DNA of 64,000 nt. It comes from Candidatus Spongiisociaceae bacterium (GTDB lineage: Bacteria; Actinomycetota; Acidimicrobiia; Spongiisociales; Spongiisociaceae). A model generated the notes under the pieces. It was not told the DNA's origin and searched no databases. It saw nothing but the letters and a program-made list of their open reading frames with translations. The position numbers were made by a program, and so were the translations under genes. The stretch spans positions 277,573-341,572 of the forward strand of contig OZ251578.1 in assembly GCA_965243835.1 (NCBI GenBank), written 5' to 3'. Below are positions 8,576-42,144 of the stretch, one piece after another (position 1 is the stretch's first letter; each line of letters starts with the position of its first letter).

Positions 8576-9657
8576 CGGCCGCGCCGGAGGCCGGGCGGGG
8601 CCCGTCCCATCCGCCGCGGGCGGTCCCGGAGACCGCCGAGGAGGCGGCCCGCTTGCTGGCCGACGCCTCCGCCGCCGGAACCCGGGTCCGGTTGCGGGGG
8701 GGCGGGACCGGGCAGGGCATCGGCTACCCGTTTCAGCCGGATTTAACGGTGTCCGCCGCCGGTTTGCGGCGGATCGTCGCCTGGGAGCCGGAGGACCTGA
8801 CGGTGGTAGTGGAGGCGGGCATGCCCATCCGGGAGTTGGAGGAAACCCTGGCGGAACGGGGCCAGACGGCGGTTCTGACCGAACGCCCCGGGGAGGGCAC
8901 GGTGGGAGGGGCTTTGGCGGCCGGGCGGTCGGGGTGGCGCCGGTTCCGCTACGGCCCGCTCCGGGACCGGGCTTTGGAAGTCACGTTGGCCACCGGGGAC
9001 GGGCGGCTGGTCACCGGCGGGGGGCGGCTGGTGAAAAACGTCACCGGCTACGACCTGCCCCGGCTGGCGGTGGGTTCGCTGGGTTCGCTGGGAATGATCG
9101 TCCGGGTCTGCCTGAAATTGTGGCCGTTGCCCCCGGCCCGGGCCACCGTGCGCGTCTCCTCCGCCGAGGAGGCTTTGGCCAAGTCCTACCGCCCGCTGGC
9201 CGTTTTGGAAACCGAACGGGGGGCTTCCGTGTTCCTGACGGGCACCCCGGAGGAAGTGGAGGGCCAGTCGGCCGCCCTGGGGGGAGACTCCTCCGCCGGC
9301 TGGGACTGGCCCGACCCGCCCGCCGGTCCGGTCCGGTTTTCGGTGCGCACCCCCCCTTCCCGGTTGCGGTCGGTCGCGGCCCGGTTGCGCTCCGCCGGTT
9401 TGTCCTATGCGGCGCAGTTCGGGGTGGGGGAGGCGACCGCGGCCGGGGAAGCCGACCCCGATTTCCTGAACGGCCTGCGCTCCCGGGCCGAAGCCGACGG
9501 CGGGAGCCTGGTGTTGTGGGACGCCCCCGCCGCGGTGCGGGAAGAGGTCGACCCGTGGGGAACCCCGCCCGCCTCGCTTCCCGTCCAACGGAAACTGGTT
9601 TCCCTGTTCGACCCGGAGCGGGTGGTTAATCCGGGCATCCTGCCGGGGCGTTTGTAA
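8572..9657 (+). CDS. glcE: Glycolate oxidase FAD-binding subunit GlcE
   Basis: GTGA overlap with the glcD stop; VRLRGGGTGQGIGYP, LVKNVTGYDL. Confidence 0.8.
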   Translation: MTAAPEAGRGPSHPPRAVPETAEEAARLLADASAAGTRVRLRGGGTGQGIGYPFQPDLTVSAAGLRRIVAWEPEDLTVVVEAGMPIRELEETLAERGQTAVLTERPGEGTVGGALAAGRSGWRRFRYGPLRDRALEVTLATGDGRLVTGGGRLVKNVTGYDLPRLAVGSLGSLGMIVRVCLKLWPLPPARATVRVSSAEEALAKSYRPLAVLETERGASVFLTGTPEEVEGQSAALGGDSSAGWDWPDPPAGPVRFSVRTPPSRLRSVAARLRSAGLSYAAQFGVGEATAAGEADPDFLNGLRSRAEADGGSLVLWDAPAAVREEVDPWGTPPASLPVQRKLVSLFDPERVVNPGILPGRL

Positions 9658-10874
9658 TGGGCTGGGTGACCGAACACGCCCCCCTGTGGGAGGATCTGAA
9701 CGGGTGCATCCAATGCGGCCTGTGCCTGCCGGTCTGCCCCACTTTCCGACTCACCGGCCAGGAAACCGCCTCCCCCCGGGGCCGGTTGACGGCCATGTCG
9801 GCCGTGGCGTTGGGGATGCCCGTGGACGACCGGTTCGCCGGAATGATGGGATTGTGCCTGCAGTGCCGGGCGTGCGAAACCGCCTGTCCGTCGTTCGTCC
9901 CGTTCGGCCGGGCGATGGAGGGGGCCCGGGCGGAGGTTGCGGCCCAGGCGCCGGGGGCGGGGCGGCGGGTGCGCCGTCTGGTCACCACCCGCTTGTTGCG
10001 CAGCCGCCGCGCCCTGCGTTCTCTCACCCTGCTGGCGGGAGCGGCCCGCCGCACCGGCCTGCACCGGCTGGCCCCCCGAACCATACGGGCTTCCATAACC
10101 GGTTTGCGCCCTCCGCCGCGGCGTCCTCGCCCGGAGCTGGCCCGCCCCGCGGCGGGGCGGTCGCGGGGCCGGGCGGCCCTGCTGACCGGGTGCGTGATGG
10201 ACGTTTGGTTTCCCGAGGTGCACGAGGCGGCGGCGGATTTGCTGGCCCGGGCCGGCTACGAGGTGATCGTCCCCCCCGACCAGACTTGTTGCGGGGCCCT
10301 GGCCGCCCACGACGGCTGGGCGGACGAAGCCCGGCGGATGGCGGCGGTCAACCGGGAGGCTTTCCGGGAAGCCGACCTGGTGGTGGCCGACGCCGCCGGG
10401 TGCGGGGCCCATTTGAAGGAATACGGACATTGGACGGAAGGCGGAGAGGAGTTGGCGGCCAAGACGGCGGACATCACCGAGGTGGTGGCGGAGGCGATCG
10501 CCGACGGGCGGTTGCCCCGGTTGCCGGAGGGGGGGAGGGAGGCGGCGGTGCAGGACCCGTGCCATCTGCGCCACGCGCAACGCATCGTCGACCAGCCCCG
10601 GGCGGTGCTGGCCGCGGCCGGTTTGCGTCCGGTGGAGATCGACCCGGGCGGGCAGTGTTGCGGAGCGGCCGGCCTGTACTCCGCGTTGGAACCGGAGATG
10701 TCGGCCATGCTGGGCCGGGCCAAGGCCGACCAGGTGCGGGTCAGCGGGGCGGACACGGTGGCTTCCGCCAACCCGGGATGCGAAATCCAGTTGCGGACTT
10801 TCCTGGGCCGGGAGGCGAGGGTGGCCCATCCGGTGGAGTTGTACCGGGAGGCGTTGGCGGAGGCGGGCCGGTGA
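9657..10874 (+). CDS. glcF: Glycolate oxidase iron-sulfur subunit GlcF
   Basis: Two 4Fe-4S motifs (CIQCGLCLPVCP, CLQCRACETACP) and CCG cysteine-rich domains; 1-nt overlap with glcE. Confidence 0.85.
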   Translation: MGWVTEHAPLWEDLNGCIQCGLCLPVCPTFRLTGQETASPRGRLTAMSAVALGMPVDDRFAGMMGLCLQCRACETACPSFVPFGRAMEGARAEVAAQAPGAGRRVRRLVTTRLLRSRRALRSLTLLAGAARRTGLHRLAPRTIRASITGLRPPPRRPRPELARPAAGRSRGRAALLTGCVMDVWFPEVHEAAADLLARAGYEVIVPPDQTCCGALAAHDGWADEARRMAAVNREAFREADLVVADAAGCGAHLKEYGHWTEGGEELAAKTADITEVVAEAIADGRLPRLPEGGREAAVQDPCHLRHAQRIVDQPRAVLAAAGLRPVEIDPGGQCCGAAGLYSALEPEMSAMLGRAKADQVRVSGADTVASANPGCEIQLRTFLGREARVAHPVELYREALAEAGR

Positions 10875-11506
10875 GCGGGTTGCGGGACGGCTGGTCCCGT
10901 CTGCGGTCGGGGGAGGGGATGCCCGGTTTCCTGCAAGCCGGTTCGGAGTTCCGCCGCTGGGCGGGGCTGTCCCTGCGTTCGCTGCGCACCGTGTGGGGGG
11001 TGGGGTTGGCGGTGGCGGGGACGGCGGTGACCGGAGCCGGGCTGGGCTTGTTGCTGCACGGGACCGGGGTGCGGACGTTGGACATGGCCCGGCCGGATTC
11101 CGAGGCCCTGTCGTCTGGGTTGGTGACCGCCCTCATCGGGACTTTTTTGCTGGGGCTGGCGGTGGAAAGCGGCCTGCGGGTCTTGGAGGACGCGCCCGGT
11201 GTCAAGGCCTGGGAGTCGGCGTTGGCGGCGGCGGCGGGCCTGGTGGCCTTCGTTCCGGTGACGTGGCTGTTGGCCGGGTTCGCCGACCGCCTGGTCGTCT
11301 TCTCCGACCTGTTCGGTTTAATCCCGGAGCAGCTTTTCCTGGTGGGGCGGAGCGGCGTTTCGGCGGCTCTGGCGGCGGGGGTTCCGCTGATGTGGCTGTT
11401 GCGGCATTTCGCCTCCCCCCGCTGGCGGGAGCACGCCCCGGCCCTGCTGTACGCGGCCTGGCTGACCGGTTTCATCTGGCTGTACCGCCCCCTCCTCCCC
11501 GCCTGA
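10871..11506 (+). CDS. Hypothetical polytopic membrane protein
   Basis: GTG start overlapping the glcF stop; several hydrophobic helices; its 3' end is the template for a degenerate copy at 11888-12015. Confidence 0.5.
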   Translation: MSGLRDGWSRLRSGEGMPGFLQAGSEFRRWAGLSLRSLRTVWGVGLAVAGTAVTGAGLGLLLHGTGVRTLDMARPDSEALSSGLVTALIGTFLLGLAVESGLRVLEDAPGVKAWESALAAAAGLVAFVPVTWLLAGFADRLVVFSDLFGLIPEQLFLVGRSGVSAALAAGVPLMWLLRHFASPRWREHAPALLYAAWLTGFIWLYRPLLPA

Positions 11507-11530
11507 CCGCCCATCCCGCGTAACGCCCCG

Positions 11531-11600
11531 CATAGAAACGACCCGCCCCCGGAGGGACGGGCCGTTTTAACCATAGGCATGCCTATGGCGCAGTTCTGAC
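11531..11600. repeat. R1 bipartite palindromic repeat (hairpin aaacgacccgcccc..gggacgggccgttt plus perfect palindrome ccataggcatgcctatgg)
   Basis: Three copies in this intergenic region (R1-R3). Confidence 0.8.
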
Positions 11601-11727
11601 GAGAAAGTATAGACGCCCGAAGGAACCCGTCAAGCCCTTCCCGCGTCGTCGGCAGTCGCGGGTGGAGCGGCAACGTCTGTTGCGGGTTACGACAGCGATG
11701 GGACAAGTGCCGGGGGCAGGCCCCCGT

Positions 11728-11796
11728 CATAGAAATGACCCGCCCCCGAAGGGACGGGTCATTCTGCCATGAGCGTACCCATGGCTGTGATGCGAC
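11728..11796. repeat. R2 copy of the same bipartite palindromic repeat (more diverged)
   Basis: catagaaatgacccgcccccgaagggacgggtcatt...gccatgagcgtacccatggc. Confidence 0.7.
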
Positions 11797-11887
11797 ATAC
11801 AAGTATACATGACCGCGACAACCCCGTCAATTCGGTTTCTCCGCTATCGACGTAACGGTGGGCGACGCCTGCTGCCGCAGGACGGGG

Positions 11888-12015
11888 GATTCCGTTGAGG
11901 CGGTTGTTGCGGCGCTTCGCCTCTCCCCGCTGGCAGGAGCGCGCCCCTGCGTCGCCGCCTGCGGGACGGCTGTCCGGTTTCATCCGGGCGTACCGCCCCC
12001 TCCTCCCCGCCTGGG
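11888..12015 (+). pseudogene. Degenerate (~80% identical) duplicate of the last ~125 nt of the upstream membrane-protein gene (11380-11506)
   Basis: gttgcggcgcttcgcctctccccgctggcaggagc...ccggtttcatccgggcgtaccgccccctcctccccgcctgg against the original gttgcggcatttcgcctccccccgctggcgggagc...ccggtttcatctggctgtaccgccccctcctccccgcctga. Confidence 0.7.
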
Positions 12016-12089
12016 CCTCCGGTCCCGCATACGCCCGGCCCGGGTTTATCATGACGGCTACGGCATAACCGCTGGGGTCCGGTTCCCGA

Positions 12090-12159
12090 CATAGAAACGA
12101 CCCGCCCCCGGAGGGACGGGCCGTTTTAACCATAGGTATACCTATGGCGCAGTTCTGAC
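12090..12159. repeat. R3 copy of the bipartite palindromic repeat; its tail supplies the RBS of the NYN gene
   Basis: Same hairpin; the second palindrome ccataggtatacctatgg carries compensatory changes relative to R1. Confidence 0.8.
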
Positions 12160-12171
12160 AAAGGAGTATAG

Positions 12172-12834
12172 GTGTCTGAAAACCATCTGTCAAATCGGTC
12201 ACGCGTATTCGGCTATGTGGATGGCTACAACGTCTACTACGGATTGCTGAGCAAAGGCTGGAAAAGGTTCTACTGGCTTGATTTACGGGCTTTGTTCACC
12301 ACTCTCTTGCTTCCGGGCGATGAGCTGGTTGCTGTCAAGTATTTCACCGCTAGAGGGCGAGGCCCCCAAGACTCCAACCGTCGCCAAGCTATTTACTTAG
12401 GGGCTCTCTCCTCGTCAGGCGGAGTGGAGATAATCAGCGGCCGGTTCGCCAGGCGGACGCGTAAGCACTGTTCCTACTGCGGGAATTATCTTCAGTGCCT
12501 GAAGTGCGAACGCAGCGACAGGCGGAACCAGGAAAAAACGACCGATGTCGCTATCGGCGTTAATTTGGTTGCGGATGCGCACGAAGGGCTGTACGACAAG
12601 GCCTTTCTGATGACCGGCGACAGCGACCTCATACCGGCGGTCAAGCATGTGGTGGACAGGTTGGGTAAAAGGGTGGTCGTTACCCCGCCGCCCGGACGAA
12701 GATCTGATCACCTGAATGAGGTGGGCTCCGGGGTGGCGTACTTTTCCGTCGGGGCCTTTAGGCGATCCCAGTTGCCGGAAGTGGTGATGGGGAGCGGGGG
12801 GCGGGAGTATCGGCGACCCGCCGCGTGGAGATGA
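12172..12834 (+). CDS. NYN/LabA-like (PIN-fold) nuclease domain protein with central zinc ribbon
   Basis: GTG start with aaggag RBS; FGYVDGYNVYY and TDVAIGVNLVADAHEGLYDKAFLMTGDSDLIPAV (NYN); CSYCGNYLQCLKCE. Confidence 0.7.
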   Translation: MSENHLSNRSRVFGYVDGYNVYYGLLSKGWKRFYWLDLRALFTTLLLPGDELVAVKYFTARGRGPQDSNRRQAIYLGALSSSGGVEIISGRFARRTRKHCSYCGNYLQCLKCERSDRRNQEKTTDVAIGVNLVADAHEGLYDKAFLMTGDSDLIPAVKHVVDRLGKRVVVTPPPGRRSDHLNEVGSGVAYFSVGAFRRSQLPEVVMGSGGREYRRPAAWR

Positions 12835-12844
12835 CGACGCCGGG

Positions 12845-14611
12845 TTACATCCGGTCGGGAATTTCGATGCCCAGCAGGTCCAGCAACAGTTCCAGGGCGC
12901 GGCGGACGACGGCGACCAGGGTAAGCCAAGAGGCCCGCCGGTGCGGGTCGGGTTCGGTGAGGATGTGGCAGGATTCGTAGAAGGAACTGAACCCGGCGGC
13001 CAGTTGGTATGCGTATTCGGCCAGCTGGTTGGGTGCCCGCAACTCCTCCGCCCGTTCCAGGGCTTCCGGCAGGGCCAGCAGATGCAACCACAGGCGCCGT
13101 TCCGGGCCGGCGTCGGGGGCGATGACCGGGCCGGGGGACAGGTCGCGCTCCCCGGCTTTGGCGAGGATGGAGGCCATCCGCACCGCCGCCATCTGCAGGT
13201 AGGGGCCGGTTTTGCCTTCCAGGGAGGTGAACCGTTTCGGTTGGAACACGTAGTTGGAGGTCCGGTTGTTGATCAGGTCCCCGAATTTGAGGGCGGCCAA
13301 GCCCACCTGCCGGGAGATGCGGTCCCGTTCCGCGTCCGGGTAGTCGGCGGCCAGGTCCGATTCGTCCAGTCGCCGGCGGGCTTCTTCGGCCACCAGCCGG
13401 ATCAGATCCTGCAAGGCCAGCACCTCCCCGGCCCGGGTTTTGTAGGGTTTGCCGTCTTTGCCGTTCATCGTCCCGAACGGGATGTGCTCCATCCGGGCGC
13501 GGGGGGCGATGCCGGTGCGCCGGGCGGCCCGGAACACCTGGGTGAAATGGTAGGACTGGCGGGCGTCCACCACGTACAGGATCAGGTCGGCCTCCAGCTC
13601 CTCGACCCGCATCCCAATGGCGGCCAGGTCGGTGGTGGAGTACAGGTAAGCCCCGCGCGAGGTGCGGACGACCAGCGGCGCGATTTCGGTTTTGTCGTCT
13701 TCTTCGGCTACTTCTACGACCACCGCCCCCTCCGACTCGCGGGCGACCCCGGCGGCGAGGGCGCCTTCCACCAGGGGGGCGAGGCGGTCCCGCACATCGC
13801 TTTCCCCATGCCACAAATCGAATTCCACTCCCAGGTCGGCGAAGTCCCGCTTTTGGGAGCGGCGGGAAACGGTCACGAAATGGTTCCACAGGGCTAGGTA
13901 GCCGGGGCGTCCCGCCTGCAGTTCGCCGGTGGCCCGGCGGGCGGCATCGGCGGTTTCCTCGTCGCGCTCGGCTTGGGCGGCGATCTGCGGATACCATTCC
14001 TGCAGGTCGGCCAGCGCGACCGGGGGTTCCTCCGGGTAGGGGCCGGAGCGGTCGGGGTCGAAGTAGGGGAGGTCGGGGAGGCGCCGTTGGGCGGCCACGA
14101 TCAGCATTCCCATCTGCAGGCCCCAGTCCCCGAAGTGGGCGTCCCCCCACACCCGGTGGCCGCGGAACCGGAGCAGGCGCTTCAGGCTGTCGCCGATGAT
14201 GGTGGAGCGCAAATGTCCGACATGCATGGCTTTGGCCACATTGGGCCCGGCGTAATCCACCACGATGTTGAGGGGATTTTCCACCGGCGGCGCCCCCGCC
14301 CGTTGCGGGTCGGCGGCCACCCGGTTCGCATATTCGGCCAAGGCGCGGTCGGTGAGGGAGAGGTTGATGAACCCGGGCCCCGCTACCGAGGCCTCGGCCA
14401 GCCGCGGGTCATCGGCGAGGCGGGCCGCCGCCTGTTCCGCCACCTCCCGGGGATTGCGCCCCCCGGATTTGGCGGCGGGCAGGGCCCCGTTGCATTGGAA
14501 CTGCCCCAAGTCCGGCCGGTTGGACGCCACTACCAACCCGTACCCGGGGTCGAACCCCAAGTCGGCGAAGGCGTTCCCCAGCAGGGCGGAGAGGTCGGAC
14601 AGCACGCTCAT
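12845..14611 (-). CDS. argS: Arginine--tRNA ligase
   Basis: 588 aa; class I aaRS HIGH-like motif (PNVAKAMHVGHLRST) and DALR anticodon-binding C-terminus. Confidence 0.9.
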   Translation of the reverse strand: MSVLSDLSALLGNAFADLGFDPGYGLVVASNRPDLGQFQCNGALPAAKSGGRNPREVAEQAAARLADDPRLAEASVAGPGFINLSLTDRALAEYANRVAADPQRAGAPPVENPLNIVVDYAGPNVAKAMHVGHLRSTIIGDSLKRLLRFRGHRVWGDAHFGDWGLQMGMLIVAAQRRLPDLPYFDPDRSGPYPEEPPVALADLQEWYPQIAAQAERDEETADAARRATGELQAGRPGYLALWNHFVTVSRRSQKRDFADLGVEFDLWHGESDVRDRLAPLVEGALAAGVARESEGAVVVEVAEEDDKTEIAPLVVRTSRGAYLYSTTDLAAIGMRVEELEADLILYVVDARQSYHFTQVFRAARRTGIAPRARMEHIPFGTMNGKDGKPYKTRAGEVLALQDLIRLVAEEARRRLDESDLAADYPDAERDRISRQVGLAALKFGDLINNRTSNYVFQPKRFTSLEGKTGPYLQMAAVRMASILAKAGERDLSPGPVIAPDAGPERRLWLHLLALPEALERAEELRAPNQLAEYAYQLAAGFSSFYESCHILTEPDPHRRASWLTLVAVVRRALELLLDLLGIEIPDRM

Positions 14612-14694: not shown

Positions 14695-16686
14695 ATGCCG
14701 CTACGTGAAACCCTGGACAACATCCGCAACGGACCCACCCCCGGCAACGAGGAGTCGGCCAAGATGTGGATTCTGGTTCCCATCCTTCAGGATTTGGGTT
14801 GGCAACCGTTTGATATCCAGTGGGAATATCAGGTGGGCCGGAGCAAAGGAAGGGTGGATGCCGCCCTAACTGGGCCAAAGGGAGTTACGGCTTTCATCGA
14901 AGCCAAAGCCCCCGGCAACCGTTTGGACGATCACGTCGAGCAGGTTTTGGGATACGCGTTCCAGGAGGGGGCGAACATCTGCGCGCTGACCACCGGCCTG
15001 GAGTGGTGGTTGTACCTGCCCGCCGAGACGGACTACAACTTCGACGAACGCCGTTTCGCCGAGTTGCGTCTCAAGGACGACCCGGTGGAACAACTGGCCA
15101 CCGATTTCGTCGCCTTCCTAGGCAAGGAAACATTATTAGACGGAGAAGCCGAGAAAAAGGCCAAGCAAGTCCTAAAAGCCCGCCGCGAGGCCGAACACTT
15201 GGACAAGGAGGTCCCCGGCATCTGGCGCGAAATGCTGGTAACCCCCGACGAAGAGCTGATAGAGCTGGTAAGCAAACGCGTCTACGAAAAAACTAACCTC
15301 CGCCCCACCTCTCAACAGGTAAACTTCGCCCTCACAGGCCGCCTTTCCCCACCCTCTACCAGCCCACGACGACCCGTTGACCCCCCAAATAAAGAGATTA
15401 AACCACCAACCAGCACGCCAGGACCTACGGCGATTCGATTGTGGGGAGAGACACAATCAGTTAAAAGCAATGCGGATATTCTTAGATGCGTTATTGATGG
15501 TCTTCTCGAACGAGGTGAGACTGAGTTTGAGAATATACCTGGAATAGGCGGTATCACTCGTACTCCTTATCAGCCCAAAATGAAGGATTATTATCAAGTG
15601 GGCTCCACCGGCATTTACTTTGTTACAGGAAAGGGCAGAGCCGTTATTGAAGATACTTATCGGCTATTAGAACACTTTGATTATACCCGTTCAGATTTAG
15701 AAATTATATATGGCAAGATGCCTCCACCAAATGGTATGAAATTGTGGGGAAAATACTATCAAGTTAAATCTTGGATTAGCATTTTGGATATTGTAGTAGA
15801 TTCTCTCTATGAACGCCATGGACACAATTTTGAACCTGGACTCGAGCTTCGTAATCAAAGAGGACCTTATATTTCTCGGGAATCTTCAGATATAGAAAGG
15901 CCCCGTCAGGTAGGCGCAAAGGATCTCTATTTGGATCGTAACATCGGACATTTGGAGGTTAAAGAACGCGCCAAAGAATTGCTTGAGGCTTTTGGATACA
16001 AAGCTTCTGATCTAGAAATTATAGAGAAAGAAAAAGCAAGCGGCTTTGAGTTCTTGGGTAAATACCATGAGGTGAAGCACAATTATCAAGTGCTGGTTGG
16101 TGTCGCCGAAGTTCTCTTCGAACAGCATGGTAACGATTTTGAAGGGGCCCTTGATTTGAAAGGTATATTACGTAAACCTGAGAGTGTCTCTCCTAAAAAT
16201 TATCGCGAAGTGGGCTCTTCGGGTATTTTTGTGAGATTGCCGGACGCTAAATTTTTTTCTAGGTCTTATCAATTGGTAGAATACTTTGGGTATAAAGCCA
16301 GTGCTTTAAGAATTGATACTACAACAGGTTCAGTAAATTATTCTACATTAGATATATCCAGAAGCAAGAGATATGTAAAGCCGGTTCGTATTAGACTGTT
16401 TGACGAGTACCATAAAGTCAAACTATGGAAAGAGATAATAATGCGGCTTGCGGATGTGCTTTATAGACGGCATCGCTCTGATTTTGATCGTGTGTTGGGT
16501 TTAGGGACTGAAAAGAACCCTTATGCTTCTCGCCTTTCTGTAGTGTTGGAGTCAGCGTATGAAGTTGGTAATTCGGGTATTTATATCGAAACAGGGCTAA
16601 GTTCCGATAATGTCAAAAGGCGCTCCAAGAAATTGTTAGAAGAATTCGGATACAAACCCGAAGAGTTAGAAATACTGTTTGATTAG
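14695..16686 (+). CDS. HsdR_N-like (PD-(D/E)XK) nuclease domain protein with Pro/Thr linker and four tandem copies of a novel ~85-aa module
   Basis: N-terminus EYQVGRSKGRVDAALTG...AFIEAKAPG...ALTTGLEWWLY matches the Type I R-subunit N-terminal fold. Four repeats carry (W/F)G.Y..VK......LY.RH..dFe then Y.VGsSGIY....LLE.FGY...L.I. The repeat region is about 40% GC. Confidence 0.75.
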   Translation: MPLRETLDNIRNGPTPGNEESAKMWILVPILQDLGWQPFDIQWEYQVGRSKGRVDAALTGPKGVTAFIEAKAPGNRLDDHVEQVLGYAFQEGANICALTTGLEWWLYLPAETDYNFDERRFAELRLKDDPVEQLATDFVAFLGKETLLDGEAEKKAKQVLKARREAEHLDKEVPGIWREMLVTPDEELIELVSKRVYEKTNLRPTSQQVNFALTGRLSPPSTSPRRPVDPPNKEIKPPTSTPGPTAIRLWGETQSVKSNADILRCVIDGLLERGETEFENIPGIGGITRTPYQPKMKDYYQVGSTGIYFVTGKGRAVIEDTYRLLEHFDYTRSDLEIIYGKMPPPNGMKLWGKYYQVKSWISILDIVVDSLYERHGHNFEPGLELRNQRGPYISRESSDIERPRQVGAKDLYLDRNIGHLEVKERAKELLEAFGYKASDLEIIEKEKASGFEFLGKYHEVKHNYQVLVGVAEVLFEQHGNDFEGALDLKGILRKPESVSPKNYREVGSSGIFVRLPDAKFFSRSYQLVEYFGYKASALRIDTTTGSVNYSTLDISRSKRYVKPVRIRLFDEYHKVKLWKEIIMRLADVLYRRHRSDFDRVLGLGTEKNPYASRLSVVLESAYEVGNSGIYIETGLSSDNVKRRSKKLLEEFGYKPEELEILFD

Positions 16687-16701
16687 AAAGGAAGGAACAG
16701 T

Positions 16702-18960
16702 ATGTCTGGCTTGATTGACGTTAAATTGATAGACGGTACGGCGCGTACTATACGTGAGCTGTTTACCGGGCGTAAGTACGGGATAGAGTACTACCAGCGT
16801 GAATACACTTGGACGGAGTCCAATGTGGTGGAGTTGCTTGATGACCTAACCACTCGTTTTCTGGATGAATATACGGAAGGCGATGAGCGTCATAAGGTCG
16901 CCTCTTACCGTTATTATTTCCTGGGACCAATAGTTACCAACCTATCCGAAGAAGGGATACGTTACTTGGTGGATGGACAGCAACGCCTTACTACCCTAAC
17001 CTTATTGTTGATTTGTCTAGATCATATGTCTAAAGATGAGGATGGGGTGGAAAGTTTGGAACAGTTAGTTTATTCGCAAAAGTTCGGTTCACGCACATTT
17101 AACATAAACGTAGACGAGCGTGAAGAAGTGATGGCTACTATTCTGGATGGTTCTTCCTCTTTTGATACGGAGGACAAGTCGATATCGGTTCGCAATATAT
17201 GGGAGAGATATCAGAATGTAGTGGATCATTTTCCTGAAGAACTCAAAGGAGAATCATTAGTGTTTTTTATTGATTGGTTACTGGAACGGGTGGTACTAGT
17301 CGAGATAGGCACCACCGACCAGGATATGGCATTAGAGGTTTTTGAAACAATGAACGACCGGGGTTTGCGTTTATCCAATACCGATATGTTGAAAGCTTTT
17401 CTACTGAGCAAACTTGACGACCGTCAGCGAATTGAAAAGACGAACGAGCTATGGCGTAATCGTATAACGGAGCTGGCAGATTTAGATAAGAATGCTGACT
17501 CGGATTTTCTGAAGCATTGGTTACGCGGGCATTACGCCGATTCAATCCGGGAACAGAAACGGGGTGCTACTCCACGCGACTTCGATATAATTGGTACCGC
17601 GTATCATAAATGGGTGCGCGATAATTGTGAAAGAATAGGGTTGTATAATTCTAGTGATTTCATGGGTTTTGCCTATCAAGACTTTGACCGAATGAGCAAT
17701 AGATACAAGCAACTTCTGCAGGCTAGCTGGGAAATGACCCCTGGTTTGGAGCACTTATTTTACAACGCCACAGTGGGAATAACACTCCAATACTTGCCTA
17801 TTATAGCGGCTTTAACTCCCGATGATGATGAAGAAATTTTTCGATCAAAAACTCGTCTTATATCTGCTTATATTGACTTGTGGATGGCGAGGCTTATGGT
17901 TAACTATCGTAACTATGGATATTCAACTATTTTACATAGAATGTTTCGATTGAGTAAAGAACTCCGTAATCGAGAATTGCATGAAGTTCAAGAAATATTG
18001 GCGAATTGGGTAGCTGGCTTACCAGATTCCTTTGAGGGCGTTATGCATTTTCGGCTTCACGGTCAGAATCGTTGGCGCATTAAATACTTGTTGTCACGGA
18101 TGACAGCTTGGGTTGAGGCGAATTGCGACGGTAGCGGTCAGTTTGTTGATTATATGGATTCACAACGCCAAAGCCCTTATGAGGTGGAACATATTTGGGC
18201 TAATAAATACGCTCGACATATAGATGAGTTTGACAGCCCGGATGACTTCGATCGTAGTAGAAATCGTTTTGGTGCTTTAGTGCTTTTACCGAAGAGTTTC
18301 AACGCCAGCTATGGTGATAAGCCTTATTCAGAAAAGGTAGAACATTATTACGGTCAGAATTTATTGGCACGGTCGCTTCACCCTAGAACCTACGAGAATA
18401 ATCCTTCTTTTAAAGGATTTATAGCGAAGACAGGGTTGCCTTTTAAACCTTATCCCGATTCTTTTACAAAGGATAATATAGAAGAGAGACAGGATTTGTA
18501 TCGTCAGATTTGTGAGCAGATTTGGGATCCGGACACCTTGGGTTTGGGCGGAGGCGCATCACAATCAATCCCTAAAAGTACTAACCCTAAAATGACTAAA
18601 AGAAATATGTCTACATATGACATTTTGGGATTGGAGTTGTTTGGTGAATATTATCAGGCGGAACATAAATACCCAAAATACCAAGTACTACAAATTGTTG
18701 CTGATGAAGTCTACAAGAGGCACCGTGATGATTTTCATCGGGCGTTGGAGATCGGCGGCTTTGTAAGTGAGCCTTCTCCTCAAAACCCTGATGAATATTA
18801 TAAGATAGGGTCATCGGGAGTATATGTTCTTGCCGCCTCGGGGCTTTTTGATAAGTCGTATAAACTATTGGACCTTTTTGGTTACCAACGGGGGGCTCTT
18901 AGAATTGACACTTCGGAAGGGCCCATCAACCCTTCAACTTATGAGGTGGATGATGAGTAG
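16702..18960 (+). CDS. DUF262/DUF1524 (GmrSD/BrxU-like) Type IV restriction-type protein with one C-terminal copy of the shared module
   Basis: DUF262 hallmark YLVDGQQRLTTLTLLL; DUF1524 His-Me motif YEVEHIWANKYARH; C-terminal LGLELFGEYYQAEHKYPKYQVLQIVADEVYKRHRDDF...YYKIGSSGVYVL...LLDLFGYQRGALRI; RBS gaaaggaagg 7 nt upstream. Confidence 0.8.
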   Translation: MSGLIDVKLIDGTARTIRELFTGRKYGIEYYQREYTWTESNVVELLDDLTTRFLDEYTEGDERHKVASYRYYFLGPIVTNLSEEGIRYLVDGQQRLTTLTLLLICLDHMSKDEDGVESLEQLVYSQKFGSRTFNINVDEREEVMATILDGSSSFDTEDKSISVRNIWERYQNVVDHFPEELKGESLVFFIDWLLERVVLVEIGTTDQDMALEVFETMNDRGLRLSNTDMLKAFLLSKLDDRQRIEKTNELWRNRITELADLDKNADSDFLKHWLRGHYADSIREQKRGATPRDFDIIGTAYHKWVRDNCERIGLYNSSDFMGFAYQDFDRMSNRYKQLLQASWEMTPGLEHLFYNATVGITLQYLPIIAALTPDDDEEIFRSKTRLISAYIDLWMARLMVNYRNYGYSTILHRMFRLSKELRNRELHEVQEILANWVAGLPDSFEGVMHFRLHGQNRWRIKYLLSRMTAWVEANCDGSGQFVDYMDSQRQSPYEVEHIWANKYARHIDEFDSPDDFDRSRNRFGALVLLPKSFNASYGDKPYSEKVEHYYGQNLLARSLHPRTYENNPSFKGFIAKTGLPFKPYPDSFTKDNIEERQDLYRQICEQIWDPDTLGLGGGASQSIPKSTNPKMTKRNMSTYDILGLELFGEYYQAEHKYPKYQVLQIVADEVYKRHRDDFHRALEIGGFVSEPSPQNPDEYYKIGSSGVYVLAASGLFDKSYKLLDLFGYQRGALRIDTSEGPINPSTYEVDDE

Positions 18961-20626
18961 TTTTTTGGTTAAGGGGCCGGCTCAACTGAGCGGGCACTTT
19001 CAGCCGGTGGGGAACAAGAATGCGGCCCTGCCGATTATCGCCGCCTGTTTGCTGGCGGAGGGGCCGGTTACTTTGCGCAACGTGCCGATGATCGGGGATG
19101 TGGAGTCGCTACTGGCCATCCTGGAGGAAATGGGGGCCGCGGTGGACCGCCGGGGAGGGGGAACCATCCGCATCGACGCCCGCAATGTGGACTCGCCTGC
19201 GGTTTCGGCGGAGCTGGCGGGGGCGATTCGGGCCTCCATCCTGCTCGCCGGACCACTCTTGGCCCGGTTCGGGCAGGTGACAATTCCGCCTCCCGGCGGG
19301 GACGTCATCGGGCGTCGTCGCATCGACACGCATGTGCGGGGGCTGACCGCCATCGGCGCCCGCTACAAATACGAGGGCGGGCATTCTTTCACCGCCGACT
19401 CCCTCACCGGCGCCGACGTGTTCTTGGACGAGCCGTCGGTCACCGCCACCGAAAACCTGATAATGGCCGCTTCCAAAGCATGGGGCACCACCGTCATCCA
19501 GAACGCCGCCTGCGAACCGCACATCCAGGACCTGTGTCATTTCCTGAACTCGCTGGGGGCGCGCATCACCGGCATCGGCAGCAACATTCTCACCATCGAG
19601 GGGGCGGATTCGCTGAGCGGCGGCGAGCACGACATCGTTCCCGACCATATTGAGATCGGAAGCATGATCGTGTTGGCCGCCGTAACCGGTTCCGAAATAA
19701 CCATCGGCGGGATACGCTCCGGTGAGATCAGGCCCATCAACCTGGCTTGGCAACGGCTGGGCATCGATTACCACCTGCAAGCGGACGGCTCCGCCCTGGT
19801 CTGCGCCCATCAGAACCTCACCGTGTCCCCCGACTTGGGCGGCGCGGTGCCCAAAATAGAGGACGGGCCGTGGCCGTCCTTCCCGGCCGACCTGACCAGC
19901 ATCGCGGTGGTGGCCGCCACCCAGGCCACCGGTTCCATAATGATCCACGAGAAAATGTTCGAGTCGCGAATGTTCTTCGTGGACCGGCTGATCGGGATGG
20001 GGGCCCGCATCGTGCTGTGCGACCCGCACCGGGTGATGGTGCTCGGCCCCACCCCCTTGCATGCCAGCCCGGTGGCCAGCCCCGACATCCGGGCCGGGAT
20101 GGCCCTGCTCATCGCCGCCCTGGCCGCCGAAGGCCAAAGTCGCATCGATAACGTGGAACAGATCGAACGGGGCTACGAAGCCCTCGACAGCCGACTCACC
20201 GCCCTAGGAGCCCAAATCGAACGCCTCGACGGGTTGGAAAGCACCAGATCGGCGGTAGCCAAAAAACCGAAAACCAGGAAACGTTCCCAAACCCCTCCTC
20301 CTGCGGGTCTGCAAATACTAGGCCGCGAATTGCAACCGACGTCTTGGGCGGATGCAGTCCGGGAGACTGTTCGAGAGATGCTCGCCCGCCACCCCGATAT
20401 TTACCAGGAGACTATGTTGGGCCTCCCACGGTGGATTGATAGTAGTGGCGATAGCCGTCTCGCCTATCCGCTAGAATCCAGGCCGCCACACAGATACGGC
20501 ACAGTTATCGGCGGAGTAAGAGTATTTGATAATTACAACGCAATAGGAGCGAAAGAGGCTGTTGACATTGTTTTAAACGGATTTGGCTACCAAGCCGACG
20601 CCGTTCGCGAATGGACTTTGACATAG
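18950..20626 (+). CDS. murA: UDP-N-acetylglucosamine 1-carboxyvinyltransferase (MurA) homolog with ~130-aa C-terminal extension carrying the shared module
   Basis: [40 protein letters not shown] and a full two-lobe MurA/EPSPS core. Asp replaces the catalytic Cys ([15 protein letters not shown]). Tail ...[30 protein letters not shown]...[12 protein letters not shown]...[17 protein letters not shown]. The ATG overlaps the upstream gene by 11 nt. Confidence 0.85.
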
Positions 20627-20638
20627 GGGCCCCGCTGG

Positions 20639-20700
20639 GGTACAGTTTTTGTGAATGCTCCCCGCCGTCTGGGGCCAACCTGGACTGGCGGGGCTTATTT
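20639..20700. repeat. X1 repeat: hairpin gctccccgcc...ggcggggc with T-rich tail, directly after the murA stop
   Basis: A second copy (X2) lies at 20897-20960; could act as the murA terminator. Confidence 0.55.
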
Positions 20701-20721
20701 ATGGATAGGTGATATCCGATG

Positions 20722-20815
20722 CCTGCTGTAGGGAAACGATCACCGACCGGTTGACGCAGAACATTCGAATGCAACGGTTCAATCGCCAGCCGCACCCCCG
20801 CCGCCGTTGCCTCCT
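20722..20815 (-). pseudogene. Degenerate (~85% identical) duplicate of an internal segment (22575-22670) of the sugar-phosphate isomerase gene
   Basis: cctgctgtagggaaacgatcaccgaccggttgacgcagaacat... against cttgccgcagggaaacgatcaccgaccggtcggcgcagaacat...; the minus-strand translation retains RLAIEPLH. Confidence 0.7.
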
Positions 20816-20896
20816 CCTCCGCCTAAGTGCTCACCCTGTGGCGGAGCCGCGCGAAGCCGTTCGTCAATAGACGATTTGACAGGGGGTCCCGGTGGT

Positions 20897-20960
20897 GTAT
20901 AGTTTCTGTTAATGCTCCCCGCTGTCCGGGTCCTTGGGGCCTGAACTGGCGGGGATTTAG
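20897..20960. repeat. X2 repeat (second copy of the X1 hairpin element)
   Basis: gtatagtttctgttaatgctccccgctgtccgggtccttggggcctgaactggcggggattt. Confidence 0.55.
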
Positions 20961-21137
20961 TTATAGGGGCTTTGCGTTGAGGGGGAGTGAGGGTGAGGGT
21001 AAGTTCCGGTTGGGTTTGCCGGTGTAGAGGAGCACTTGGGTTCTGTCGTTACGGAATCCGAAGGCTCCGCCACCCCCTCCACCCCCACTATCTCCACCTC
21101 CCCCGAGTGTTCCACCCAGACGACGCGGCGTGTTGGT

Positions 21138-21950
21138 TTACAGGTTGGGAGGGACGGTAGTCATTTTATTCAAGGTTTCCTTGTCTAAATCGATAATGTT
21201 ATCCGCTAGTTTAGAAAGCTCACGGGACACACTATTCCGGTTGGGAGTAGCAACCGATACTCGAGTTCCCATATTTTGGGCGACACGTACAGCCTCCGTA
21301 AAGTCCCCATCTCCCGCAATGAGCACCGCCTTATCAATCTTTCCTTGTTGCGCCAACATCACCAAATCCAACACTAGCAAGGTATCCACTCCTTTCTGTT
21401 TGTGTTCTGGCTCGAAAGCCCCATTTTTTTCTAACTCGTTTATGAATTGAATTGGATCCTGCCCTAAATCGGACACCATTTTATTGAGGGTAGCTCTTAG
21501 ATCGCGTTCGTTTTTAGGTCTTATTTCAACTATACGTCCCAGTCGGAGTTCAAAGTCAGGGATCTGCACTAATTCAGACAGGATTTTTCGTTGAAATTTT
21601 GCTGATTTGTGGTAAGCGGGATAAGCACCATCATACCAATAGGTTTTATGAAGGTGTCCTTCGATGCCTCTGCACCAATCTGCAATCTCTTTGGTATTCA
21701 TTTGTATTCGCGTTTTGGGTATTGAATTACCGGAGAAATTTTTGCCTTCCGCTCGTAAATATCCAACATCTATAAAAACGGCATAACGAGAAGATGGTTC
21801 GTTTTGTTCGGCTGTCGTTGTGTTTTCTAGGAGTTTGAAAAAATACGTCTTGGTTTCGCCGATTTTTGCTCGTCTTTCGAGCTTGAGTGTTTCTTCTGGG
21901 TTGTCGGCGATGTCATAGTTTCCTGTATTTATTTTATTGTTTTCTTTCAT
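21138..21950 (-). CDS. NYN/LabA-like (PIN-fold) nuclease domain protein
   Basis: RYAVFIDVGYL...GVDTLLVLDLVMLAQQGKIDKAVLIAGDGDFTEAVRVAQNMGTRVSVA. Start chosen at MKENNK because of the gggagaag RBS; the ORF is open up to 22148. AT-rich. Confidence 0.65.
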   Translation of the reverse strand: MKENNKINTGNYDIADNPEETLKLERRAKIGETKTYFFKLLENTTTAEQNEPSSRYAVFIDVGYLRAEGKNFSGNSIPKTRIQMNTKEIADWCRGIEGHLHKTYWYDGAYPAYHKSAKFQRKILSELVQIPDFELRLGRIVEIRPKNERDLRATLNKMVSDLGQDPIQFINELEKNGAFEPEHKQKGVDTLLVLDLVMLAQQGKIDKAVLIAGDGDFTEAVRVAQNMGTRVSVATPNRNSVSRELSKLADNIIDLDKETLNKMTTVPPNL

Positions 21951-22231
21951 TTTTCTTTCTTCTCCCGTATCGGGTGGATTCCGCTTGTGTGCGGGTATCC
22001 CTTGTAATTTACCTAAAGGGGGGTAAGTTTCGGCTTTGTAAAATATTTCTAGGTGTTTGACAAAAAATCCCATAGGAAGCCCCAACGATGTCCCATAGGG
22101 GACCGTTGCTACCCCCTCTAGGGAAATCCAGTTTAGGGCAACGCCCAATATTTGTCAAACGGGCATCTACCTGGGCTTTTGCCAGGGGCAGGAGCGGGGT
22201 TCGTTGGACGGCGGCCCGTTCAGGGGGACGG

Positions 22232-41917: not shown

Positions 41918-42001
41918 GCCGGGATGCCCGAGCGGCCAAAGGGAGCAGACTGTAAATCTGCCGGCTAAGCCTACGGAGGTTCGAATCCTTCTCCCGGCAC
42001 C
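41918..42001 (+). tRNA. tRNA-Tyr (GTA)
   Basis: Acceptor gccggga/tcccggc, anticodon loop actgtaaatc, long variable arm, TPsiC ggttcgaatcc. Confidence 0.8.
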
Positions 42002-42049
42002 GACCAGAACCGGACCGAACCCGGAACTGGTATCCTGACAAGACCCATC

Positions 42050-42123: not shown

Positions 42124-42144
42124 CGACGGCCTTGGGCCGCAGGC

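What the first reader, a model, noticed from the sequence alone, without database searches (positions are those of the whole stretch)
11506..12834. NYN-domain gene preceded by three palindromic repeats and a degenerate copy of the neighbouring gene's 3' end
Downstream of the membrane-protein gene (stop 11506) lie repeat R1, then R2, then an ~80%-identical copy of that gene's last ~125 nt (11888-12015, still translating to ...RFASPRW.ER..A...G...GFIRAYRPLLPA), then R3. The tail of R3 provides the RBS and GTG of a NYN/PIN-like gene with a zinc ribbon. The pattern, a host-gene 3' fragment plus a repeat reiterated, ending in a nuclease-domain gene, resembles repeated insertion and duplication at a hotspot. 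It could be a serial insertion site or a capture mechanism, though no integrase is present.
Basis: seen in the sequence. Interest (0 to 1): 0.55.

Follow-up and report, generated by a model that had tools for sequence, protein, structure and literature searches.

The report
Duplicated small-RNA partner of NYN RNase
The three "palindromic repeats" are three copies of a small RNA gene that accompanies this type of NYN ribonuclease gene in many bacterial lineages and occurs alone in some phages, which points to an undescribed RNA-controlled toxin or defence module; the copied gene fragment is debris from local tandem duplication.

Summary
11885-12013 is an 81%-identical copy of the membrane gene's last 129 nt, and R1, R2 and R3 are related. 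The "serial insertion/capture" reading does not hold. Everything between the repeats is a decayed copy of local DNA (membrane-gene 3' end, NYN 5' end), so this is tandem segmental duplication. Relatives show independent versions of it.

Each R is a minus-strand transcription unit: a near-consensus sigma-70 promoter (TTGACA-17-TATACT), two hairpins, the second followed by UUUCU. G.U wobbles mark the minus strand as the RNA strand.

The NYN protein is a full-length match to PADLOC HEC-09. In 78 of 80 distant HEC-09-like loci (33-47% identity, GC 29-68%), a homologous sRNA of about 60 nt lies next to the gene. Covariation is strong (12 of 14 pairs in the seed set and in a held-out set), and Rfam 15 has no match. 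The sRNA is usually on the opposite strand. In 7-8 loci it is on the same strand, in type III TA-like order, and in 2 loci it lies downstream. Copies without a nearby NYN gene occur in 17 viral contigs and in one cultured cyanophage.

Best reading: the sRNA is an RNA antitoxin or regulator of a NYN RNase. All evidence is computational.

The parts
10873..11506 (+). Membrane-protein gene (211 aa, no Pfam match). It is the neighbour whose last 129 nt (11377-11505) were co-duplicated.
   Evidence: ORF and sequence. No Pfam, NCBIfam or PADLOC match. Orthologue called in L014 at 9142-9768, 82% nt identity.
11528..11633 (-). sRNA gene copy R1. -35 TTGACG at 11633..11628, 16-nt spacer, -10 TATACT at 11611..11606. 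Transcribed body is about 11597..11528: hairpin A CCAUAGG/CCUAUGG, then a 13-14-bp hairpin B followed by UUUCUAU.
   Evidence: Promoter scan. Minus-strand fold -42.6 kcal/mol, z -4.7, versus -30.3 on the plus strand. Family model R1 gives 16.6 bits, E 5e-4, in the local search. The body is 95.7% identical to R3 while its flanks are 62-67%.
11634..11690 (+). Decayed remnant of the NYN 5' coding region (unit 1), ending near codon 25-26.
   Evidence: Alignment A7. 62.5% identity to 12194-12255, with indels.
11691..11724 (+). Remnant of the spacer that precedes R (unit 2).
   Evidence: Repeat family D11, 11691-11763 versus 12053-12125, 77%. 64.7% over the spacer part alone.
11725..11830 (-). sRNA gene copy R2, the most diverged. 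-35 TTGACG at 11830..11825, 17-nt spacer, -10 TATACT at 11807..11802. Body about 11793..11725. Both hairpins are kept through compensatory and G.U changes. The 5' tail differs from R1 and R3.
   Evidence: Promoter scan. Minus-strand fold -41.3 kcal/mol, z -5.6. Pair counts on A3. Model R1 gives only 7.1 bits, E 0.18, third-best hit in the region. Body is 74% identical to R3.
11831..11884 (+). Decayed remnant of the NYN 5' coding region (unit 2), joined at about 11884|11885 to the membrane-gene copy.
   Evidence: Alignment A7. 59% identity to the intact gene's 5' end.
11885..12013 (+). Degenerate copy of the membrane gene's last 129 nt. The stop codon is lost.
   Evidence: 81% identity, ungapped. 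The same junction-bearing copy is present in relatives L101, L102 and L103.
12014..12086 (+). Spacer between the gene-fragment copy and R3. No promoter-like site was found on either strand.
   Evidence: Does not align to the L014 spacer.
12087..12193 (-). sRNA gene copy R3, attached to the intact NYN gene. -35 TTGACA at 12193..12188 lies inside NYN codons 6-8. 17-nt spacer. -10 TATACT at 12170..12165 lies between the Shine-Dalgarno sequence and the GTG. Body is about 12158..12087.
   Evidence: Promoter scan, 11 of 12 matches. Minus-strand fold -38.8 kcal/mol, z -3.9. Model R1, built without this clade, gives 25.0 bits, E 2.5e-6 locally and E 0.001 in a 460-kb search.
12172..12834 (+). NYN-domain RNase gene with a Zn-ribbon-like insertion (220 aa). 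Member of the PADLOC candidate defence family HEC-09.
   Evidence: Pfam NYN 2.7e-8. PADLOC HEC-09 1.2e-58 over 2-203 of 203. Catalytic D17, N20, E121, D125, D150 and D152 are invariant in A4. AF2 model pLDDT 86.5. Best PDB folds are 2qip (LabA-like) and MARF1 NYN.
12845..14611 (-). argS, convergent with NYN. It is the conserved right-hand anchor of the slot. Its 3' part is co-duplicated in relatives but not in this window.
   Evidence: ORF. Synteny in L012-L020. argS fragments inside the tandem units of L012, L015, L017 and L018.

Best explanation
R1, R2 and R3 are three copies of a small RNA gene of about 65 nt, transcribed from the minus strand, away from the NYN gene. Each copy has its own strong sigma-70 promoter, two hairpins and a terminator-like end.

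This sRNA is the clade-specific form of a widespread, previously undescribed structured sRNA family. That family is the near-obligate genomic partner of HEC-09-type NYN ribonuclease genes.

The extra copies, the copy of the membrane gene's 3' end and the NYN 5' remnants come from tandem duplication and amplification of the segment spanning the NYN 5' region. The non-functional parts have since decayed. The transcribed sRNA body (at least R1) and the promoter hexamers were preserved.

Inferred mechanism: NYN plus sRNA is a two-part toxin-antitoxin-like or defence module. The abundant sRNA keeps the RNase in check, mainly through the RNA itself, by recognition of its conserved hairpin-A loop and linker by the protein (type III-like). 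In the common opposite-strand layout, as in this window, a second layer is likely: the sRNA promoter sits on the NYN ribosome-binding site and start codon and fires against incoming transcription, giving promoter occlusion, collision and antisense pairing with the leader. Extra sRNA genes raise the antidote dose. Phages that carry the sRNA alone may use it as a decoy.

Shown computationally: gene anatomy, family membership, linkage, covariation and duplication history. Inferred: expression, toxicity, neutralisation and RNA-protein binding.
For: **Anatomy**
- The only three promoter-like sites in 11300-12900 are on the minus strand, one per R (11/12, 10/12 and 10/12 matches; 0.5 expected by chance). 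The orthologous site in L014 has the same feature.
- Minus-strand folds are 8-12 kcal/mol better than plus-strand folds.
- In 13 copies from this clade, 247 of 247 pair cells are standard on the minus strand. 25 of them are G.U, which would be A.C on the plus strand.

**Family**
- The protein is HEC-09.
- In 80 distant loci, a minus-strand promoter is enriched just upstream of the gene: 35 hits in three 20-nt bins against a background of 0-1 per bin.
- A covariance model built from 51 of these sRNAs, none from the window clade, finds the sRNA in 78 of 80 loci and nowhere else in 460 kb. It also hits R3, R1 and all orthologous copies.
- Covariation in the seed set: 96.8% of cells paired, 12 of 14 pairs with double changes, 0 of 500 shuffles as good, slid controls at most 47% paired.
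- Covariation in 43 held-out sequences: 95.9% paired, 12 of 14 pairs.

**Independence from orientation**
- 68 loci have the sRNA upstream on the opposite strand, 7-8 upstream on the same strand, and 2 downstream.
- In same-strand loci the SD and start codon follow the sRNA terminator within 2-18 nt. There is no excess sRNA/mRNA complementarity (z +0.3 to +1.6).
- The hairpin-A loop (NAGYA) and the linker are conserved across GC 29-68%.

**Selection on the extra copies**
- The R1 body is 95.7% identical to R3, while the adjoining sequence is 62-67% and the gene-fragment copy is 81%.
- The pseudo-units in L012, L015, L017 and L103 all keep promoter and hairpins while NYN, argS and membrane pieces carry deletions.
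- Tandem sRNA doublets also occur in L033, L037 and L055/L063/L066.

**TA or defence context**
- A HepT/MNT pair occupies the same slot in L104.
- A GmrSD/HEC-06-like gene lies beyond argS.

**Copies without NYN**
- Full-length sRNA copies (up to 77 bits) occur in 17 viral contigs with no NYN homologue in the fetched DNA and no shared neighbour within 1.5 kb.
- One copy lies in Dolichospermum phage Dfl-JY45.
Against: - No expression, toxicity or binding data exist. HEC-09 gave no protection against the phages tested in E. coli.
- No promoter for NYN itself was found on the plus strand in the window or in relatives. How NYN is transcribed, and whether its mRNA overlaps the sRNA, is therefore unknown.
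- In the window clade the sRNA is at the detection limit of the family model (25, 16.6 and 7.1 bits). Its hairpin-A loop and linker differ from the family consensus, so homology rests on architecture, partial sequence and position. R2 may be a decaying pseudogene.
- The high identity of R1 and R3 could reflect gene conversion rather than selection.
- The seed sequences were picked with a hairpin filter, which biases the seed pair counts. The held-out set and the clade alignment are free of that filter, but the held-out set was aligned to the model.
- More distant NYN homologues show no detectable sRNA: 77 of 80 viral-contig loci and a 3.5-kb E. coli plasmid.
- The 80 loci analysed are the top-scoring subset of at least 565 relatives.
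Confidence: 0.6

Rival explanations
1. Pure antisense (type I-like) regulator. The sRNA acts only by base-pairing with the NYN leader and by transcriptional interference. It has no protein contact. The same-strand, downstream and phage copies are derived or non-functional exceptions.
For: 68 of 80 loci and every copy in the window clade have the sRNA on the strand opposite to NYN, within about 20-60 nt of the start codon. In the window, the -10 and -35 hexamers straddle the NYN start codon, and the sRNA 5' end abuts the SD. This layout resembles SymE/SymR. Tandem duplication is typical of chromosomal type I loci (own knowledge).
Against: A cis-antisense RNA needs no conserved structure, loop or linker sequence across phyla, yet these are conserved. 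7-8 loci and a Streptomyces plasmid have the sRNA on the same strand with no complementarity to the NYN translation start region. Copies without NYN persist in phages. No NYN promoter upstream of the sRNA has been found that would create overlap.
Confidence: 0.2
2. Recognition-motif model. The two-hairpin RNA is primarily a phage or mobile-element RNA feature that the NYN RNase recognises and cleaves. The host-encoded copy next to the gene serves as a bait, a specificity template or a competitive substrate, not as a classical antitoxin.
For: Full-length copies sit in intergenic positions of 17 viral contigs and one cultured phage. They have no NYN gene in the fetched DNA, no shared neighbour within 1.5 kb, and only some have recognisable promoters. 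The conserved loop and linker suggest protein recognition.
Against: Only 19 exact-pattern hits were found in 2.9 million viral contigs. The host copies have strong dedicated promoters and terminators, which implies high constitutive expression. That fits an inhibitor better than a target.
Confidence: 0.1
3. Serial insertion or capture hotspot. R copies are ends or attachment sites of a mobile element or cassette system that repeatedly inserted next to the membrane gene, each time duplicating the target's 3' end.
For: The slot is variable among relatives, with NYN+sRNA in some and HepT/MNT in another. A neighbour-gene fragment is duplicated. A second NYN-domain gene elsewhere in the window also lies in a 2-kb insertion that carries a neighbour-gene fragment.
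Against: The DNA between R copies is entirely paralogous local sequence, with no cargo. Relatives show whole-segment tandem units with one repeated junction. R has promoter plus terminator anatomy and belongs with the NYN gene in 78 of 80 unrelated contexts. The only three R copies in the 64-kb window are at this locus. No recombinase domain appeared among the genes annotated in the relatives' loci or in the window ORFs that were scanned. The window was not scanned exhaustively.
Confidence: 0.03
4. No dedicated RNA. R is a bidirectional terminator or REP-like DNA palindrome shared by the convergent flanking operons, and the promoter-like hexamers are fortuitous.
For: On the plus strand hairpin B is followed by GUUUUAA, so it could also stop read-through from the membrane-gene operon.
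Against: TTGACA/TATACT-type hexamers with 16-17-nt spacing are kept in all 13 clade copies despite 60-67% identity around them. A similar promoter is enriched in distant loci. The G.U versus A.C asymmetry is 25:0. Hairpin A is not needed for termination, yet it covaries.
Confidence: 0.03

Closest known systems
Type III toxin-antitoxin systems (ToxIN, CptIN, TenpIN)
   Same: An RNase gene is paired with an adjacent gene for a small structured RNA that is made in excess. In 7-8 family loci and on a Streptomyces plasmid the order is promoter, RNA, terminator, RNase ORF, as in toxI-toxN. Multiple copies of the RNA recur. Phages that carry the RNA alone recall the pseudo-ToxI escape phages (own knowledge).
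   Different: The protein has a NYN (PIN-like) fold, not the ToxN/AbiQ fold. The RNA is a discrete two-hairpin transcript of about 60 nt, not an array of 34-36-nt repeats processed by the toxin. In most loci, including this window, the RNA gene is on the opposite strand. Binding and neutralisation are untested.
Type I toxin-antitoxin loci with nuclease toxins or tandem repeats (SymE/SymR; ldr/rdl, ibs/sib, zor/orz, dinQ/agrAB)
   Same: The sRNA gene lies opposite the 5' end of the protein gene, and its promoter lies inside or next to the start of the ORF, as for SymR (own knowledge). Local tandem duplication yields several sRNA copies, some diverged.
   Different: The protein is a 220-aa soluble RNase, not a small hydrophobic peptide. 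The sRNA has a phylum-spanning conserved structure and loop sequence. Its orientation is not fixed across the family, and no complementarity exists in same-strand loci.
HEC-09 (PADLOC candidate defence family; Payne et al., bioRxiv 10.1101/2024.01.29.577857)
   Same: The window protein is a full-length, high-scoring member (E 1.2e-58). It is a MARF1-like NYN RNase with a Zn-ribbon and conserved aspartates.
   Different: HEC-09 is described as a single-gene candidate that gave no defence in the tests reported. Literature searches found no paper mentioning an RNA partner. Here the gene is not embedded in an Hma system but sits beside argS.
HepT/MntA (HEPN/MNT) toxin-antitoxin pair
   Same: It occupies exactly the same membrane-gene|argS slot in a relative (L104) and also encodes an RNase toxin. 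It is a positional analogue, which suggests functional equivalence.
   Different: The antitoxin is a protein (a nucleotidyltransferase). There is no sequence or structural relation to NYN or to the sRNA.

Membership tests
HEC-09 / NYN (PF01936) RNases | Full-length match to the family profile | tested here: met
   PADLOC PDLC04163 HEC-09, E 1.2e-58, profile positions 2-203 of 203. Pfam NYN, E 2.7e-8, above the gathering score.
HEC-09 / NYN (PF01936) RNases | NYN/PIN-like fold with conserved acidic catalytic residues | tested here: met
   D17, N20, E121, D125 and D150 are invariant and D152 is nearly invariant across 28 homologues. AF2 pLDDT 86.5. Foldseek top hits are 2qip and MARF1 NYN, probability 1.00.
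HEC-09 / NYN (PF01936) RNases | Anti-phage activity | not testable with these tools
   The only published test found no protection against the phages tried.
Type III toxin-antitoxin | Gene for a structured RNA immediately adjacent to the toxin gene, conserved together | tested here: met
   sRNA found in 78 of 80 distant loci and in all clade members. There are no model hits elsewhere in 460 kb.
Type III toxin-antitoxin | RNA gene upstream on the same strand, separated from the toxin ORF by a terminator | tested here: not met
   In the window, and in 68 of 80 loci, the RNA is on the opposite strand. The feature is met only in 7-8 loci and in the Streptomyces plasmid.
Type III toxin-antitoxin | Antitoxin is an array of short tandem repeats cut by the toxin | tested here: not met
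   The RNA is a single two-hairpin transcript of about 60 nt with its own promoter. Multiplicity arises from duplication of whole genes.
Type III toxin-antitoxin | RNA binds and inhibits the toxin protein; the toxin is growth-inhibitory | not testable with these tools
   Inferred only, from the conserved loop and linker and from independence of orientation.
Type I toxin-antitoxin | Antisense RNA overlaps the toxin mRNA | tested here: inconclusive
   The sRNA gene is opposite and abuts the SD, and its promoter covers the start codon. No NYN transcription start could be located.
Type I toxin-antitoxin | Mechanism depends on complementarity, so orientation or complementarity is always kept | tested here: not met
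   Same-strand loci lack complementarity (z +0.3 to +1.6). Copies without a nearby NYN gene occur in phages.
Type I toxin-antitoxin | Small hydrophobic toxin peptide | tested here: not met
   The protein is a 220-aa soluble NYN RNase. Nuclease exceptions such as SymE and RalR exist (own knowledge).
Site-specific insertion array (integron-like, or serial island insertion) | Repeats bound foreign cassettes or cargo | tested here: not met
   All inter-repeat DNA is paralogous to adjacent local sequence.
Site-specific insertion array (integron-like, or serial island insertion) | Recombinase or integrase nearby | tested here: inconclusive
   No recombinase domain is listed among the called genes of the relatives' loci or found in the window ORFs scanned. 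The window was not scanned exhaustively.
REP / MITE-type dispersed repeats | Many dispersed copies in the genome | tested here: inconclusive
   The 64-kb window holds only the three copies at this locus. The rest of the genome was not available. The exact-pattern scan of reference genomes found only 11 scattered single hits in unrelated taxa.

The most novel reading that the evidence does not exclude
HEC-09-type NYN RNases and this two-hairpin sRNA form a new, widespread class of RNA-protein toxin-antitoxin or defence module. The sRNA binds and silences the RNase. Its genes are duplicated and retained as extra antidote while duplicated toxin genes decay. Phages have acquired the sRNA alone as an anti-defence decoy. 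The lack of phenotype in the published HEC-09 test would then need re-examination with attention to the RNA partner.
Probability: 0.4. Interest if true: 0.85.

Novelty: new variant of a known kind. Interest (0 to 1): 0.72.

Why it matters
HEC-09 is listed as a single-gene candidate defence system with no demonstrated activity. The analysis here shows that it almost always travels with a strongly promoted, structurally conserved small RNA. It does so in metagenomes of 29-68% GC and in named records from Deinococcota (Thermus), Actinomycetota (Streptomyces) and Chloroflexota. This turns HEC-09 into a two-component system with a testable logic of RNA antidote and RNase.

If confirmed, the result would:
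- add a new toxin fold and a new RNA family to the RNA-antitoxin systems;
- give a reason to re-examine the negative HEC-09 defence assay with the RNA partner in view;
- provide a second natural example of phages carrying an RNA antitoxin mimic.

The result also supplies a covariance model for annotating a currently unannotated RNA gene. It further explains a class of puzzling local repeat structures and assembly breaks next to these genes.

Tried and rejected
- **Exact-pattern scan of reference genomes** with the R hairpin core: only 11 scattered single hits in unrelated taxa.
- **Exact look-up of the window's NYN protein**: not on record, so the window's own contig could not be extended.
- **Rfam**: nothing above threshold in the window region. 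The sub-threshold istR and sbrA hits are terminator look-alikes. No match at E<=1 in 10 distant loci.
- **Plus-strand promoter for NYN**: none at 9/12 or better in the window or in L014. There is no positional enrichment in 68 loci.
- **Trans-complementarity** between the sRNA and the NYN start region in same-strand loci: none.
- **Conserved protein neighbour of the viral sRNA copies that lack NYN**: none in all-against-all BLASTP.
- **More distant NYN homologues**: 77 of 80 viral-contig loci at 27-35% identity, and the 3.5-kb E. coli/Serratia plasmids, show no model hit. The association may be limited to the HEC-09-like subfamily, or their RNAs may be too diverged to detect.
- **Anticodon-loop mimicry of hairpin A**: considered and dropped, because the common loop variant GUGAGUAGC lacks U33.
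- **IS200/IS605-type ends, attC sites and REP elements**: considered for R and rejected on anatomy and on the junction analysis.
- **Literature searches** for an RNA partner of NYN/HEC-09: nothing found. One 2026 preprint on ncRNA mining could not be opened, but term counts show it contains no 'NYN', 'LabA' or 'PIN domain'.


Full report
**1. Checking the observation**

- The membrane-protein ORF ends at 11506.
- 11377-11505 and 11885-12013 are 81% identical over 129 ungapped nt (D5). The copy still translates to a recognisable C-terminus, with the stop codon mutated.
- R1 (11526-11621) and R3 (12085-12180) are 88% identical. R2 is a more diverged third copy.
- R3's tail carries AAAGGAG and the GTG of a 220-aa protein with a Pfam NYN domain.

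R1 and R2 are each followed by about 55-60 nt of badly decayed NYN 5' coding sequence. R2 and R3 share upstream spacer sequence (D11).

The layout is therefore three degenerate tandem units:
- Unit 1: intact membrane gene, R1, NYN 5' remnant.
- Unit 2: spacer remnant, R2, NYN 5' remnant.
- Unit 3: membrane 3' copy, spacer, R3, intact NYN.

**2. What R is**

- RNA folding favours the minus strand by 8-12 kcal/mol in all three copies.
- A consensus scan of 11300-12900 found exactly three sigma-70-type sites, all on the minus strand and one per R (0.5 expected by chance):
  - R3: TTGACA-17-TATACT.
  - R2: TTGACG-17-TATACT.
  - R1: TTGACG-16-TATACT.
- In R3 the -35 hexamer lies in NYN codons 6-8, and the -10 hexamer lies between the SD and the GTG. 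Transcription runs away from NYN, through hairpin A (7 bp) and hairpin B (13-14 bp, then UUUCUAU).
- Each R is therefore a promoter-to-terminator unit for an RNA of about 65 nt.
- Thirteen distinct copies from this clade were collected by a sequence anchor, not by structure. All keep the hexamers and both hairpins. 247 of 247 pair cells are standard on the minus strand, and 25 of them are G.U, which would be A.C on the plus strand.

**3. Relatives and the origin of the repeats**

NYN lies next to argS in all close relatives (69-89% protein identity).
- L014, L019 and L020 have a single unit.
- L012/L013, L015, L017 and L018 carry two or three tandem units. Each is made of membrane 3' fragment, R, internally deleted NYN and argS 3' fragment.
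- These units share one junction, argS position 11541 joined to membrane position 9371 in L014 coordinates (sequence). This is the footprint of tandem duplication of a 2.2-kb segment, its amplification, and later deletions.
- L103 is about 85-90% identical in nucleotides to the window. It shares the window's membrane-copy junction but has two units instead of three. The window's duplication therefore predates that split.
- Several short-read contigs break exactly at this locus.

In every pseudo-unit the sRNA promoter and hairpins survive while the protein-coding pieces are broken. In the window the R1 body is 95.7% identical to R3, against 62-67% for the adjoining sequence and 81% for the gene-fragment copy.

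Nothing foreign lies between the repeats, so the 'serial insertion/capture' idea is not supported. The slot itself is variable, however. A genome whose ArgS is 71% identical has a HepT/MNT toxin-antitoxin pair between the same two genes. The other side of argS carries variable GmrSD/HSDR_N-type genes.

**4. The protein**

- It is a full-length member of PADLOC family HEC-09 (E 1.2e-58).
- The NYN acidic residues are invariant.
- The AF2 model is confident (pLDDT 86.5). Its best structural matches are the LabA-like protein 2qip and the MARF1 NYN domains.
- HEC-09 was proposed as an Hma-embedded candidate defence RNase. It gave no protection in the published assay.

**5. The sRNA is family-wide**

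I fetched 80 metagenomic loci encoding homologues with 33-47% identity and GC of 29-68%.
- A promoter on the strand opposite to the gene is sharply enriched just upstream of it: 35 hits at 10/12 or better in three 20-nt bins, against a background of 0-1 per bin.
- Reading the sequences showed a common design:
  - promoter;
  - 5' tail AAC(A/C)(G/C)C;
  - hairpin A, 8 bp, with loop NAGYA, most often GAUAGCAUC;
  - a 3-nt linker;
  - hairpin B, starting ACG...CGU;
  - a U-tract.
- An alignment of 51 such RNAs (A5) shows 96.8% of cells paired, 12 of 14 pairs with compensatory double changes, 0 of 500 shuffles as good, and slid controls at most 47% paired.
- A covariance model built from it, without any window-clade sequence, finds the RNA in 78 of 80 loci. 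One of the two misses is a contig cut 76 nt upstream of the anchor codon. There are no hits elsewhere in 460 kb.
- The same model hits R3 (25 bits), R1 (16.6 bits) and all orthologous clade copies (19.5-27 bits). In a local search R3, R1 and R2 are the top three hits.
- Forty-three sequences not used for the model show the same covariation: 95.9% paired and 12 of 14 pairs.
- Rfam 15 has no match at E<=1.
- Literature searches found no report of an RNA partner for NYN or HEC-09.

**6. Orientation and copy number**

- 68 loci have the sRNA upstream on the opposite strand.
- 7-8 loci have it upstream on the same strand. There the SD and start codon follow the terminator within 2-18 nt, as in type III TA operons.
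- 2 loci have it downstream and convergent.
- In the same-strand loci the sRNA has no excess complementarity to the NYN translation start region.
- Tandem sRNA doublets occur in L033, L037 and L055/L063/L066.

**7. Examples in named organisms**

- Thermus oshimai JL-2 pTHEOS01: 62 bits, opposite strand, in a gap with no listed gene.
- A Streptomyces plasmid: 35 bits, same strand.

**8. Copies without NYN in phages**

- An exact-pattern scan of viral contigs for the hairpin-A/linker core gave 19 loci.
- 17 of them are model hits (16 full-length; up to 77 bits).
- None has a NYN homologue in the fetched DNA, and no protein neighbour is shared.
- One cultured phage, Dolichospermum phage Dfl-JY45, carries a copy in an unannotated gap (51.9 bits).
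- Conversely, only the three closest of 80 viral-contig NYN homologues have the sRNA.

**9. Interpretation**

Shown in silico:
- R1-R3 are copies of a promoter-to-terminator sRNA gene.
- That gene belongs to a conserved, covarying RNA family tightly linked to HEC-09-type NYN genes.
- The extra copies and gene fragments stem from tandem duplication followed by decay that spared the sRNA genes.

Inferred: the sRNA controls the RNase. The conserved structure, loop and linker, the independence from orientation, the lack of complementarity in same-strand loci and the phage copies all argue for action through the RNA itself (type III-like protein recognition) rather than antisense pairing alone.

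In the window's layout the sRNA promoter physically overlaps the NYN start. Promoter occlusion, collision or antisense effects are therefore a plausible second layer. Retention of orphan sRNA genes beside broken NYN copies, and a bona fide RNase TA pair in the same slot of a relative, fit toxin-antitoxin logic.

**10. Caveats**

- There are no expression or activity data.
- No NYN promoter was found.
- The window-clade sRNA is a divergent member near the model's detection limit, and R2 may be decaying.
- Gene conversion could explain the R1/R3 identity.
- Seed sequences were chosen with a hairpin filter.
- Model E-values are rough.
- The 80 loci are the top-scoring subset of at least 565 relatives.

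**11. Source organism**

The source organism is uncultured and high-GC. The nearest named ArgS homologues, at about 65% identity, are from Acidimicrobiia MAGs.

Noticed in passing
window 60650-64000 (runs off the end); also 51051-51082: Large CRISPR array with at least 46 copies of a repeat of about 37 nt (GCCGCAATGAGGGAGGGGCGAATTCGCCCCTCGTAG), period 72-75 nt. A degenerate repeat-like sequence lies about 10 kb upstream.
   Followed up: no
window 20228-22240: A second, distantly related NYN-domain gene (21138-22148, minus strand, 336 aa) sits in a 2-kb insertion between aroA and an AP-endonuclease-like gene. The insertion is absent from relatives L012 and L015. It also holds a 66-nt copy of an internal piece of the neighbouring gene (20733-20798).
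   Followed up: partly
window 20618-20705 and 20876-20965 (+): Two roughly 85%-identical units, each with a near-consensus promoter (TTGACA-17-TACAGT and TTGACA-16-TATAGT) followed by a long hairpin and a U-rich tail. They are convergent with the second NYN-domain gene. The theme is the same as at the main locus, but the sequence is unrelated to the sRNA family model.
   Followed up: partly
window 14695-18960: Between argS and aroA lie an unknown 663-aa gene (weak HSDR_N similarity) and a GmrSD/HEC-06-like gene (16702-18960). This interval differs in gene content among close relatives, as in a defence-island slot.
   Followed up: partly
L104 7796-8382: In a genome whose ArgS is 71% identical, the membrane-gene|argS slot holds a HepT-like/MNT toxin-antitoxin pair instead of NYN plus sRNA.
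   Followed up: partly
L012 1-7121: In the L012/L013 genomes a gene for a 4455-aa protein with no Pfam match ends just upstream of the tandem pseudo-units. An intact membrane gene is not seen there.
   Followed up: no
L101 1-2030: In this 3.5-kb contig the glcF-like gene upstream of the NYN locus is inverted relative to the window. This is either a real inversion at the repeat or an assembly chimera.
   Followed up: no
L205 (E. coli/Serratia 3461-bp plasmids, e.g. NZ_CP091696.1): Tiny plasmids found in several Enterobacteriaceae carry a NYN-domain gene together with a VbhA-family antitoxin gene and an HTH gene. The sRNA model gives no hit there.
   Followed up: partly
window 51715-51796; 41918-42218; 45802-45877: SAM riboswitch and tRNA genes, found by the Rfam gathering-threshold scan.
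   Followed up: no
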